DNA from: a virus
Taxonomy: Duplodnaviria > Heunggongvirae > Uroviricota > Caudoviricetes
Direction: 5' to 3' (one strand)
Length of the DNA stretch: 35,118 nucleotides
IMG/VR virus record: IMGVR_UViG_2529293069_000022
Made by a program: the position numbers. Positions 24,001-26,149 of this stretch are shown piece after piece. How positions within the stretch are numbered: the stretch's first letter is position 1; each line of letters opens with the position of its first letter.

Positions 24001-26149
24001 TGGCACAAAATATCAGGCCAATCCCTAACATTGCTTCTGCGGGTAAGATGAACGGTTTTTCATTCGAATATAGGGGGATTGCTTTCAAAGCTTCGCAGCT
24101 CGGTAAGGGTTATTCTTGGTCAGCCTTGCAGAACAAACTCAACTATCAACCGGAACGTGATAATGCTTTCCTGTTTGAACTGAAAGCATCTGTCAGTGAA
24201 GCGCCTTGTACGTTCATGACTACAGATGCTCCTGAAATCACAACAAGAGTGGTTCACAGCCCCATAGAAGCGCTTATCCATGATAACCGTGCTGGTCAGG
24301 ACGAATACACTAACGCTTCTGTAAAGCAGTTTCACTTAGAAGCTGGTGCTAAAGAAGCGTTAAAAGAAGCCCCCAACCAAAGCTATGCAGTTTCAGCGTT
24401 CAGGTGGTTGGAATACATCCCCTACCTCGATGTAATTTATCGTATGTTGAAAAACCTCAAAATCCCAACCCTTAAACGTCCTCTAAAACACAAAACCATC
24501 ACTGACGTGAGAGTGGTAGAGATTATGCCTCTCCCCCAAAAAAATCGCATCGAATCAGCACCTCAATCCAGAAGAGCTTCGCTTTCGATGTAAGGCTAGC
24601 AAGCCTTTTTGGATAAATATATCCCAATAAATTGATCGTTTATACCGATCGATATATTGACATTGATAGATTGAATCTATCATTGATTCATAATCGATCG
24701 GTACAAGTGATTTGCGTTTCTTACGAACTAAGTCAAAATGTCAATTTACATGAAATCATCTAACGATATGATTTAACTAGTCTATTTACTTATTCATTAG
24801 CTCAAGCGCAGGGTTTGAAATGGCAACTACCATCTCAACTGTAAGCCTGGACGGTTTCATACATCACCGAATATGACTTCATCTTGAACACTAAGGAACT
24901 TGTATGAGCATCTCCGCTACGAAAAGCAGGAAGAAAGAAGCTGAAGCTGGTCTTTCTGATGATCCTCGGCAAACGGAAATCACGACACCCAATTTTGTGC
25001 TGTTTGGTGAAACTTTCACATTTATTGAGACTTTCTCTGCCACTGTCATCGACTCCGATCCAGGCAATGGTCATATCTGGGTAAAAACCAACACAGGGGA
25101 TGAGAAGCAGATTTCTGACTACGGTGTCCCTTTCAGAAGTTCACACACTATCCATAAATACGAACTTCGCCAATATAGTGAGGATGGTTCGTATGATGCA
25201 TATAAAGATGCGCTTATCGTTAATAAGAAAACGGGTGAACACGAGGTAAACTTAAAAAGAAAAACCATTATTATCCCCGCTTTTCTGACAATGCTATTTC
25301 ATACTGCCTCCACAGCATCGTATTACAGAGCAATGCCTGTTCCAAAGTTTCTCACCGTTATTTTCATTTTACTTTGTGCTGCTGCACTTATTTCATTTCT
25401 CACACTACCCTGGGGATTTAAAGACGGCTACATGTGGAGCGACCACAAATACATGTGGTTTACATATCTTTTCTCAAGAGTTGGAAGTTTTATTTGTATC
25501 AATTTGATGAAAAGAAGAAGCCAGAAATTTGAAAATGAACTTAGAAATCTTATTGAGTCAGTAAAGCGCTACAATTTAAAAATAAAAAAGGATAGTGTGG
25601 TATGAAAAAAATCATAATCGTAGGATTCGTTTTTCTGACCTTGGCAGGTTGTTCTTCAGTAGGCAACCAGTCATTGAAAAATGAGACGCAGGAAAGTGTG
25701 AAAACCAAAATTGTTAAAGGCAAAACTACAAAACAGGACGTGTTAGCATCGTTCGGTGAACCTGACAGCCGTTCTTTGATCGATGGTGAAGAACAATGGT
25801 CATACACTATGTATAACAGCCAGTCCAAAGCAACCTCTTTCATCCCCGTTGTGGGACTGCTTGCAGGTGGCGCAGACTCACAAACTAAATCTCTGACAGT
25901 TTCTTTCAAAGGCGAAAAAGTCAGCACATACATCTTTAATGCTGGAACAAGCAACGTGAAGACTGGCATTTTTTAGATAAAAGACAAAACCAGCATCAAG
26001 GGAAAATTTAGCCCGCAGTTGATACCTACGGGCTTTTTACAGAAACATAAATCACTTTTTAAAGAAAGTGATTATCTTTTTCAGCCTCCCCCAAACTTTA
26101 CTGTTCATTTCTACAGTCTCAGTATTTTCCTTTAAAGAGGATCTTATTG

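What the first reader, a model, noticed from the sequence alone, without database searches (positions are those of the whole stretch)
24611..24703. Nested palindrome cluster between the relaxase and the downstream operon
A 19-bp near-perfect palindrome is bracketed by an 11-bp inverted repeat (TACCGATCGAT / ATCGATCGGTA), with an additional GGATA/TATCC repeat nearby. This is more structure than a simple promoter needs. It could be an operator for the downstream membrane/lipoprotein operon, a recombination site or an oriT-like element.
Basis: seen in the sequence. Interest (0 to 1): 0.4.

Follow-up and report, generated by a model that had tools for sequence, protein, structure and literature searches.

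The report
Dam/OxyR phase-variation switch on island
The nested palindromes are most likely three binding sites for the host regulator OxyR with Dam-methylation sites (GATC) in the outer two, a heritable on/off switch of the kind proven for the Salmonella gtr and opvAB genes, here driving small membrane-protein genes on a mobilizable E. coli genomic island; they do not look like an origin of transfer or a recombination site.

Summary
The palindromes are real, sit at the stated coordinates and are far beyond chance. They are one conserved 90-bp array of three dyads spaced 31 bp apart: A ATCGTTTATACCGAT (24635-49, two GATC), B ATAGATTGAATCTAT (24666-80, no GATC) and C ATCGGTACAAGTGAT (24697-711, one GATC). 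These match the OxyR half-site consensus ATAGnTnnnAnCTAT at 8, 10 and 7 of 10 positions.

The array lies 3' of the relaxase gene in all 71 enterobacterial island loci that have downstream sequence. Spacing and all three GATCs are invariant, the spacers are hypervariable, and no base-pair covariation supports a hairpin.

The only match outside these islands is the Salmonella opvAB control region, a proven Dam/OxyR phase-variation switch. It aligns in register as far as the mapped -10. Phage P22 gtr has the same A-B-C layout.

The downstream genes differ between clades but mostly encode small membrane proteins or lipoproteins. Best reading (about 0.75): a gtr/opvAB-type epigenetic switch for the rightward promoter, with a predicted start near 24747.

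The oriT reading is disfavoured, because a better candidate lies upstream of the mob operon at 22769-22835. This is a new member of a known kind and of moderate interest. No bistability, methylation or OxyR binding was tested.

The parts
24635..24649 (+). Half-site A, ATCGTTTATACCGAT. It matches the OxyR half-site consensus ATAGnTnnnAnCTAT at 8/10. It is overlapped by GATC1 (24634-24637) and GATC2 (24647-24650), which are 13 bp apart.
   Evidence: Across 68 distinct homologous sequences it scores 7-8/10 and both GATCs are present in 68/68. P22 gtr OxyR(A) has the same layout, with GATC1/2 13 bp apart.
24666..24680 (+). Half-site B, ATAGATTGAATCTAT. It matches the OxyR consensus at 10/10 and has no GATC.
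   Evidence: It scores 8-10/10 in 68 sequences, with 29 at 10/10. The arms TGATAG/CTATCA are near-invariant and the 7-nt centre is hypervariable. It aligns with opvAB OBSC and gtr OxyR(B).
24697..24711 (+). Half-site C, ATCGGTACAAGTGAT, 7/10. It is overlapped by GATC3 (24696-24699). The position where gtr has GATC4 reads GATT (24709-24712).
   Evidence: GATC3 is present in 68/68, and the fourth position is GATT, AATT or GTTT, never GATC. It is in register with opvAB OBSD (7/10, carries a GATC, lies immediately upstream of the -35).
24712..24740 (+). Predicted sigma-70 promoter: -35 TTGCGT (24712-24717), 17-nt spacer, -10 CAAAAT (24735-24740). The inferred start is near 24747, which puts the centres of C, B and A at about -43, -74 and -105.
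   Evidence: A -10-like hexamer (CAAAAT, GAAAAT, GAGAAT or AAAAAT) lies 20-22 nt after block C in 57 of 68 sequences, across clades with unrelated downstream genes. It aligns with the primer-extension-mapped opvAB -10 TAAAAT. The start site itself is inferred, not shown.
24904..25976 (+). Genes presumed to be under the switch: a 233-aa hypothetical protein with a hydrophobic segment (24904-25605) and a BamE-domain lipoprotein-like ORF (25602/25674-25976).
   Evidence: In other clades the first gene after the array is usually a 90-92-aa zinc-ribbon membrane protein, a DUF4755-type membrane protein or a small lipoprotein; a few loci show only short ORFs that may not be genes.
24611..24624 (.). 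It is not part of the conserved array.
   Evidence: It is not conserved in the 78-81%-identical loci L021-L024.
24592..24610 (+). Small hairpin plus T-run (AAGGCT-AGCA-AGCCTT-TTT) directly after the relaxase stop codon. It is a possible terminator separating the mob operon from the switch.
   Evidence: Read from the sequence and conserved in the close clade only. The terminator scan did not call it. Low confidence.

Best explanation
The cluster is a Dam-methylation/OxyR epigenetic phase-variation switch of the gtr/opvAB type. It controls a rightward promoter for the small membrane-protein genes that follow the relaxase gene on a mobilizable, GInt-like genomic island.

Proposed mechanism, by analogy with gtr and opvAB (inferred, not shown here): a reduced OxyR tetramer can occupy either half-sites A+B or half-sites B+C, whose centres are 31 bp apart. 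B is the shared consensus site and has no GATC. Dam methylation of the GATCs in A (two) or in C (one) blocks OxyR at that half-site, and bound OxyR blocks Dam. After replication each cell therefore inherits one of two self-perpetuating methylation patterns.

C abuts the -35, with its centre near -43, as OBSD does in opvAB. On that basis B+C occupancy is most likely the ON state and A+B the OFF state. This polarity is the least secure step, because the gtr switch works the opposite way.

The 'nested palindrome' appears because each half-site is itself a dyad and because the right arm of A is the complement of the left arm of C.

Shown here: the site architecture, its conservation, its homology to a proven switch and its position next to a conserved promoter-like element. 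Inferred: OxyR binding, methylation patterns, bistability and polarity.
For: 1. The three dyads match ATAGnTnnnAnCTAT at 8, 10 and 7 of 10 positions with 31+31 bp spacing. This is the best triple in the window at 25/30; 0 of 200 random windows reached it.

2. In 68 distinct sequences from about 60 Enterobacterales species, spacing is 31 bp in 67 and 65 of 68. GATC1, GATC2 and GATC3 are present in 68/68. B scores 9-10/10 in 57 of 68. The spacers and dyad centres are hypervariable.

3. There is no covariation for either hairpin model, and changes in the arms mostly break pairing. This fits sequence-specific protein sites on duplex DNA.

4. The only BLAST match outside the islands is the Salmonella yeiW-setB spacer: 78% identity over 68 nt, E = 1e-4 in 7.3 Gb. 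That locus encodes OpvA and an OpvB-like protein, so it is the opvAB control region. opvAB is experimentally shown to be a Dam/OxyR switch with half-sites at -148, -116, -75 and -43 (PMC4856963; PMC3350482). The alignment stays in register from GATC3 through OBSC and OBSD to the mapped -10.

5. P22 gtr has the same A-B-C layout. Its GATC pair in A is 13 bp apart, B is GATC-free and C carries GATCs (PMC2909390; sequence).

6. The same signature in IMG/VR contigs precedes gtrA, acyltransferase, fimbrial-like and small membrane-protein genes.

7. The first gene downstream varies between clades but is in most loci a small membrane protein or lipoprotein.

8. The array is found only in Enterobacterales, which have Dam by established knowledge. 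It is absent next to related relaxases in Pseudomonas, Methylobacter, Gallionellales, a deltaproteobacterium, Paracoccus and cyanobacteria.

9. The opvAB control region is reported to confer bistability in E. coli (abstract of PMC6677893).
Against: No experiment or methylome was available, so OxyR binding, differential methylation and bistability are all inferred.

The array has three GATCs, not four, so its behaviour may differ from gtr.

There is no BLAST-level similarity to phage gtr regions. The resemblance to gtr is one of architecture and of aligned half-sites only.

The promoter is weak by consensus (-35 3/6, -10 4/6) and the start site is unmapped. The generic scan instead called TTTACA-16-TATGAT at 24745-24772.

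A lone 10/10 dyad of the same type, conserved upstream of the 137-aa gene, leaves open that an island-encoded protein rather than OxyR reads these dyads.

The strict linkage to the relaxase gene (71/71) is not explained by the switch model. It may only reflect backbone synteny.
Confidence: 0.75

Rival explanations
1. Origin of transfer: the array is the relaxosome assembly site, with a nick site in the invariant block GGTACAAGTGATTT.
For: The array is always 77-161 nt 3' of the relaxase stop on the same strand (71/71 loci). Its right block is near-invariant. It bears a loose resemblance to the RSF1010 nick region CCGGTAAGTGCG|CCCT, recalled from memory and not tested.
Against: No covariation supports a hairpin. 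The left arm degenerates without compensation. The invariant bases are the GATCs and the ATAG/CTAT dyad, not a nick-like core. A homologous array operates in opvAB with no relaxase. The array is absent from distant relaxase relatives. In contrast, AGC[AC]AGGGCTAAC plus a hairpin with compensatory stem changes lies upstream of the mob operon both in the islands and in Pseudomonas, Methylobacter and Gallionellales relatives. That upstream motif occurs in 620 E. coli genomes against 165 for the array. No plasmid in PLSDB carries the array.
Confidence: 0.07
2. The array is an operator, but it is read by a regulator other than OxyR: either an island-encoded DNA-binding protein (the 133-aa, 137-aa or GinD-like product) or another LysR-type factor. 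Dam may or may not be involved.
For: ATCG-N7-CGAT and ATAG-N7-CTAT are generic T-N11-A LysR-type boxes (established knowledge). A second conserved dyad, GTCAATAG-N7-CTATCAA, lies just upstream of the conserved 137-aa gene in about 30 loci. It has no partner half-site, which is unusual for an OxyR tetramer.
Against: B matches the OxyR consensus specifically at 9-10/10. The array is homologous in register to opvAB, where OxyR binding is shown and where the cloned region alone is reported to work in E. coli. No protein of the locus has a recognisable DNA-binding family hit. The invariant GATCs point to Dam.
Confidence: 0.12
3. Site-specific recombination site: tyrosine-recombinase core sites made of inverted arms around a 7-bp crossover region, used by the gin-like recombinases or for multimer resolution.
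For: Each unit is an inverted repeat around a 7-nt spacer that varies freely between lineages. Two tyrosine recombinases are encoded nearby.
Against: The array is kept where the recombinase module is different (L028: Rep plus a single integrase) or deleted (L029). It is internal to the island, whereas GInt att sites are at the element ends (PMC5385486). The opvAB and gtr homologues have no such role.
Confidence: 0.03
4. A single-strand DNA structure, either a single-strand origin (priming signal) or a cruciform, formed by the nested inverted repeats after transfer.
For: In this window the DNA folds strongly on both strands (z about -4 to -5).
Against: Across 68 sequences there is no excess of compensatory changes. 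Only about 88% of outer-stem cells are paired, and many single-sided changes break pairs. The 10-nt segments between outer and inner arms are never complementary.
Confidence: 0.03

Closest known systems
gtr (O-antigen glucosylation) Dam/OxyR switch of phage P22 and Salmonella (Broadbent et al. 2010, PMC2909390)
   Same: Both have three OxyR half-sites A, B and C, with a central consensus site lacking GATC. In both, a pair of GATCs 13 bp apart lies in A, C also carries GATC, and the half-site spacing fits the reduced OxyR tetramer, so that AB and BC are alternative sites. Both sit on a mobile element upstream of membrane proteins. The half-sites align position by position.
   Different: The span from first to third GATC is 66 nt here and 68 nt in gtr. 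The fourth GATC is replaced by GATT, AATT or GTTT in all 68 island sequences. C sits about 5 nt further from the -10, as in opvAB, so the ON/OFF polarity may be reversed. There is no BLAST-level similarity to phage records. The regulated genes are unrelated to gtrABC.
opvAB (STM2209-STM2208) Dam/OxyR switch of Salmonella enterica (Cota et al. 2012 and 2016; PMC3350482, PMC4856963)
   Same: This is direct sequence homology: 78% over 68 nt, in register from GATC3 through OBSC (10/10) and OBSD (7/10, with a GATC) to the -10. The half-site centres are at about -74 and -43 here, against -75 and -43 in opvAB. Both regulate small inner-membrane proteins in a horizontally acquired, AT-rich context.
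   Different: opvAB has four half-sites spaced 32, 41 and 32 bp and four GATCs, two of them outside the half-sites. The island array has three contiguous half-sites at 31+31 bp. No OpvA or OpvB homologues are present in the islands.
agn43 (flu) Dam/OxyR switch of E. coli
   Same: Competition between Dam and OxyR at three GATCs gives heritable ON/OFF states (established knowledge; cited in PMC4856963 and PMC2909390).
   Different: In agn43 all three GATCs lie in a single OxyR site downstream of the start site, and OxyR acts only as a repressor. Here the GATCs are split between the two outer half-sites upstream of the promoter. This comparison rests on memory and was not tested with sequence.
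MOBP/MOBQ origins of transfer (inverted repeat plus nick site next to relaxase genes)
   Same: An inverted repeat beside a relaxase gene of the TraI/MobA(P) type.
   Different: There is no conserved stem pairing and no nick-like core, and the array lies 3' of the gene. It is absent in distant relatives. A separate, better candidate lies upstream of the mob operon.

Membership tests
Dam/OxyR phase-variation switch (gtr/opvAB type) | Two or more OxyR half-sites matching ATAGnTnnnAnCTAT, spaced for the reduced tetramer (about 31-32 bp centre to centre) | tested here: met
   The sites score 8/10, 10/10 and 7/10 at 31+31 bp. This is the top triple in the window, and 0 of 200 random windows reach it. 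The arrangement is conserved in 68 sequences.
Dam/OxyR phase-variation switch (gtr/opvAB type) | GATC sites overlapped by alternative half-sites, with a shared half-site free of GATC | tested here: met
   GATCs at 24634 and 24647 lie in A and a GATC at 24696 lies in C; B has none. All three are present in 68/68 sequences. The fourth GATC of gtr is absent.
Dam/OxyR phase-variation switch (gtr/opvAB type) | The array abuts or overlaps the promoter of the regulated operon | tested here: inconclusive
   A conserved -10-like hexamer lies 20-22 nt after block C and aligns with the mapped opvAB -10. No start site has been mapped for the island, and a different promoter-like site was called by the generic scan.
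Dam/OxyR phase-variation switch (gtr/opvAB type) | Sequence homology to an experimentally proven switch | tested here: met
   blastn hit to the opvAB control region with E = 1e-4 and 78% identity over 68 nt. The locus was identified through OpvA and OpvB. The alignment is in register.
Dam/OxyR phase-variation switch (gtr/opvAB type) | The host has Dam and OxyR | tested here: met
   The window is E. coli, and every locus carrying the array is from Enterobacterales, which have Dam and OxyR by established knowledge. The array is absent beside relaxase relatives from other orders. The dam and oxyR genes themselves were not searched for.
Dam/OxyR phase-variation switch (gtr/opvAB type) | OxyR binding blocked by methylation, opposite methylation patterns in ON and OFF lineages, and bistable expression | not testable with these tools
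   This needs EMSA or footprinting, single-molecule methylomes and single-cell reporter assays.
Origin of transfer (MOBP/MOBQ) | An inverted repeat maintained as a stem (compensatory changes) next to a conserved nick core | tested here: not met
   Covariation is no better than in shuffles, and many single-sided changes break pairs.
Origin of transfer (MOBP/MOBQ) | Co-conservation with the relaxase family across distant relatives | tested here: not met
   The array is absent beside relatives at 37-46% identity, including a Pseudomonas plasmid, whereas the upstream AGC[AC]AGGGCTAAC-hairpin motif is present there.
Origin of transfer (MOBP/MOBQ) | Cis-acting mobilization and site-specific nicking | not testable with these tools
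   This needs mating and nicking assays.
Tyrosine-recombinase core site | Co-occurrence with its recombinase and a position at recombination junctions | tested here: not met
   The array is present in L028 (different integrase module) and in L029 (gin-like genes deleted), and it is internal to the island.

The most novel reading that the evidence does not exclude
A portable Dam/OxyR bistable promoter is a fixed backbone part of a whole family of mobilizable, GInt-like islands. The family is present in about 60 Enterobacterales species and about 3% of complete E. coli genomes. Behind the switch, different small membrane-protein cassettes are exchanged, giving these defence-carrying islands a phase-variable surface or exclusion function. 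On this reading the Salmonella opvAB control region, reported in 2012 to have no homologues outside Salmonella, was captured from such an island.
Probability: 0.3. Interest if true: 0.6.

Novelty: new member of a known kind. Interest (0 to 1): 0.45.

Why it matters
If confirmed, this adds a widespread, island-borne member to the short list of Dam/OxyR epigenetic switches (agn43, gtr, opvAB).

It would give a plausible mobile source for the horizontally acquired opvAB control region.

It would also predict that genes carried next to anti-phage cargo on mobilizable islands are expressed in only a subpopulation of cells. That bears on how such islands balance cost against protection.

It offers a simple sequence signature, GATC-N9-GATC-N14-16-ATAG-N7-CTAT-N14-16-GATC, for finding further phase-variable loci.

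It also warns against assigning oriT from palindromes beside relaxase genes.

Tried and rejected
1. oriT was my working hypothesis until. I dropped it after three findings: the deeply conserved upstream motif, the lack of stem covariation and the opvAB homology.

2. A search for the RSF1010-type nick core TAAGTGCGCCCT found nothing above chance.

3. I considered a cyanobacterial origin with HIP1 repeats because of CGATCG. There are no GCGATCGC sites, and the window is E. coli.

4. An Rfam scan of 22300-25100 found nothing below E = 0.6.

5. I tested whether the first downstream gene encodes a conserved autoregulator. It does not; the genes are unrelated membrane proteins.

6. I looked for OpvA or OpvB homologues in the islands and found none.

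7. I considered an iteron or replication-origin reading of the three 31-bp units. No initiator co-occurs with the array except in L028, so I did not pursue it.

8. Full-text searches for the motif strings returned only unrelated papers. No paper in the library combines OxyR, GATC, phase variation, genomic island and relaxase.

9. blastn against phage records gave no meaningful hit.

10. PADLOC, PHROGs and NCBIfam scans gave no function for the 133-aa, 137-aa or 233-aa proteins.

11. A second high-scoring triple at 17782 (23/30) lies inside a coding region and has no GATC. I judged it to be chance.

Full report
**Observation.** TACCGATCGAT (24643-24653) pairs exactly with ATCGATCGGTA (24693-24703). 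The central TGATAGATT-G-AATCTATCA (24664-24682) is a perfect 19-bp palindrome. GGATA/TATCC lies at 24611-24624. The region sits in the 310-nt gap between a relaxase ORF ending at 24593 and a 233-aa ORF starting at 24904. Folded as single-stranded DNA it is much more stable than shuffles (z = -4.2 and -4.9; 0 of 200 shuffles as good).

**Context.** The window is a 35,118-bp E. coli contig (AKLT01000035.1). It is identical over this region to O157 strain 493/89. The locus is a chromosomal island next to ypjA.
- On the - strand it has a four-gene recombination operon: two tyrosine recombinases, a 543-aa 'DNA-binding' protein and a 132-aa protein. This resembles the ginABCD operon of GInt islands (PMC5385486).
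- On the + strand it has a 133-aa gene followed by a TraI/MobA(P)-type relaxase.
- In this strain the relaxase carries an in-frame TGA where intact alleles have Trp.
- The variable cargo to the left consists of anti-phage systems.

**Conservation.**
- Diverged copies of the island in other E. coli are 78-81% identical overall but 90% identical in this spacer.
- More distant E. coli copies match only window 24625-24713, which is exactly the palindrome block.
- A protein-based scan of one genome per species found 68 loci with relaxase relatives.
- Every enterobacterial locus with sequence downstream of the relaxase carries the array on the same strand, 77-161 nt after the stop codon. That is 71 loci and 70 distinct sequences, with relaxase identity from 92% down to 46% among the species-scan loci.
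- The pattern is three units with a 31-nt period: A = AyyGATCG-N7-nGATCnAT, B = TGATAG-N7-CTATCA, C = ATCGATCG-GTAYAAR-nnnTTT.
- Spacing is fixed (31 bp in 67 and 65 of 68 sequences). The unit centres and the 10-nt linkers are hypervariable.
- GGATA/TATCC is not conserved.

**Hairpin or protein sites?** I counted pairs for two structures on 68 sequences: the nested hairpin, and a model in which A and B fold separately. Neither shows more compensatory change than shuffled controls. Where arm positions vary they mostly break pairing: pair 24/80 is unpaired in 38 of 68 sequences and pair 29/75 in 24 of 68. What is invariant is the sequence itself, namely three GATCs and the ATAG/CTAT dyad. This argues for protein sites on duplex DNA and against a stem, and therefore against an oriT hairpin, a single-strand origin or a cruciform.

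**The oriT question.** I first favoured oriT because of the strict linkage to the relaxase gene. Two results changed that.
- The genes downstream of the array differ between clades (233-aa protein, 90-aa zinc-ribbon membrane protein, DUF4755 membrane proteins, lipoproteins). The array also survives replacement or loss of the recombinase module in L028 and L029. That excludes a recombinase site.
- Upstream of the mob operon lies another conserved element at window 22769-22835: AGCAAGGGCTAAC followed by a hairpin whose stem shows many compensatory changes, then a T-run.
- That upstream motif is also found ahead of relaxase relatives at 37-46% identity in Pseudomonas (including a plasmid), Methylobacter, Gallionellales and a deltaproteobacterium. 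None of these has the array.
- It occurs in 620 of 5,426 complete E. coli genomes, against 165 for the array. In at least one genome (L105) it has no relaxase within 7 kb downstream.
- It occupies the canonical position used to define oriT families in a recent survey (bioRxiv 10.64898/2026.01.13.699239).

I therefore regard the upstream element as the better oriT candidate. This is an inference and has not been tested.

**Identification.** The only match to the array outside the islands was a 68-nt, 78%-identical hit in Salmonella records, between yeiW and setB.
- That locus encodes the 34-aa peptide MKKYTFAARAFIFTLVLLFVISVFGLTISVLKGM followed by an OpvB-like (Wzz-like) membrane protein. These are OpvA and OpvB.
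- The opvAB control region is an experimentally dissected phase-variation switch. It has four OxyR half-sites (OBSA-D at -148, -116, -75 and -43; A and C match the consensus 10/10, B 8/10 and D 7/10) and four GATCs. OFF and ON lineages carry opposite methylation patterns, and these are generated by OxyR binding (PMC4856963).
- Its -10 (TAAAAT), 17-nt spacer and -35 (GTGAAT) were placed relative to a start site mapped by primer extension (PMC3350482).

Scored against ATAGnTnnnAnCTAT, the window units give A = 8/10, B = 10/10 and C = 7/10. This is the best triple at 31-bp spacing in the window (25/30; random maximum 21).

The alignment with opvAB runs in register from GATC3 through OBSC (= B) and OBSD (= C) to the -10. 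There the window reads CAAAAT at 24735-24740. This places the centres of C and B at about -43 and -74.

The P22 gtr switch has three half-sites. Its GATC1 and GATC2 are 13 bp apart in A, B has no GATC, and GATC3 and GATC4 lie in C. OxyR binds AB or BC as alternatives (PMC2909390). It aligns half-site by half-site with the island array. The island differs in having GATT, AATT or GTTT at the fourth position in all 68 sequences.

A pattern scan of viral contigs with the bare signature recovered three groups: gtrA-linked and acyltransferase-linked switches, island-type copies, and further variants ahead of fimbrial-like and membrane proteins.

**Mechanism proposed.** A reduced OxyR tetramer binds A+B or B+C. 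Dam methylation of the GATCs in the unoccupied outer half-site, together with protection of those in the occupied one, makes each state heritable. Because C abuts the -35 as OBSD does, B+C is probably the ON state. In gtr the proximal pair is the OFF state, so this polarity is uncertain. None of the binding, methylation or bistability was tested.

The taxonomic pattern fits dependence on Dam: the array occurs only in Enterobacterales and is absent beside relaxase relatives elsewhere.

**Open points.**
- The constant position beside the relaxase gene may only reflect backbone synteny.
- A lone 10/10 dyad of the same type is conserved upstream of the 137-aa gene. This keeps a non-OxyR reader possible (confidence 0.12).

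**Novelty.** The kind of system is well known. This island-borne, three-GATC member and its homology to opvAB appear undescribed in the searchable literature. The 2012 opvAB paper reported no homologues outside Salmonella. GInt islands have been described as non-mobilizable (PMC10214605), yet this family carries a relaxase.

**Verdict.** New member of a known kind; interest 0.45.

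Noticed in passing
window 23604-23606 (relaxase 23361-24593): An in-frame TGA interrupts the relaxase at a position where intact 410-aa alleles in O55:H7 and other strains continue without a stop. RefSeq marks the gene 'internal stop'. The island in this strain can probably no longer mobilize itself.
   Followed up: partly
window 22769-22835: AGCAAGGGCTAAC followed by a hairpin with compensatory stem changes and a T-run, upstream of the mob operon. The same motif precedes distant MOBP relaxase relatives (a Pseudomonas plasmid, Methylobacter, Gallionellales). It occurs in 620 of 5,426 E. coli genomes, in at least one (L105) with no relaxase within 7 kb downstream. It is the better oriT candidate, or else a module-boundary terminator.
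   Followed up: partly
window 28251-32804 (- strand): A four-gene recombination operon (two tyrosine recombinases, a 543-aa protein and a 132-aa protein) resembles ginABCD of GInt islands. GInts are described as non-mobilizable, yet this enterobacterial family always carries an accessory gene plus a MOBP relaxase.
   Followed up: partly
window 28224-28246: A lone perfect OxyR-consensus dyad, GTCAATAGCTAAAACCTATCAAT, lies between the ginD-like stop codon and the conserved 137-aa gene. On the - strand its arm overlaps a TTGACA. It is conserved in about 30 related loci and has no GATC and no partner half-site.
   Followed up: partly
window 17615-17624: A G10 tract puts the ATG at 17569 out of frame with the ABC-three-component defence gene (17613-18809). 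One extra G would restore a single ORF. This could be a slipped-strand on/off switch, decay or a sequencing error.
   Followed up: partly
window 25624 onward: About 300 typical O157:H7 genomes match only from window 25624 rightward. They have lost the mob genes, the switch and most of the 233-aa gene through a deletion.
   Followed up: no
window 24760-24903; L045-L048, L055: The long leader between the switch and the start codon, including TGATTTAACTAG, TTGAAATGGCA..TACCATCTC and the first codons (MSI), is conserved between clades whose downstream proteins are unrelated. This suggests a conserved 5' UTR behind which cassettes are exchanged.
   Followed up: no
window 26052-27344 (- strand): A 430-aa protein with an acidic repetitive C-terminal part gives a weak hit to PADLOC candidate PD-Lambda-4_B (E = 2e-7). 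Its length varies from 380 to 430 aa among otherwise identical strains.
   Followed up: no
L109-L130 (IMG/VR contigs): The signature GATC-N9-GATC-N14-16-ATAG-N7-CTAT-N14-16-GATC occurs in 22 viral contigs. It lies ahead of gtrA, acyltransferase, fimbrial-like and 184-aa membrane-protein genes, which suggests more undescribed Dam/OxyR switches.
   Followed up: partly
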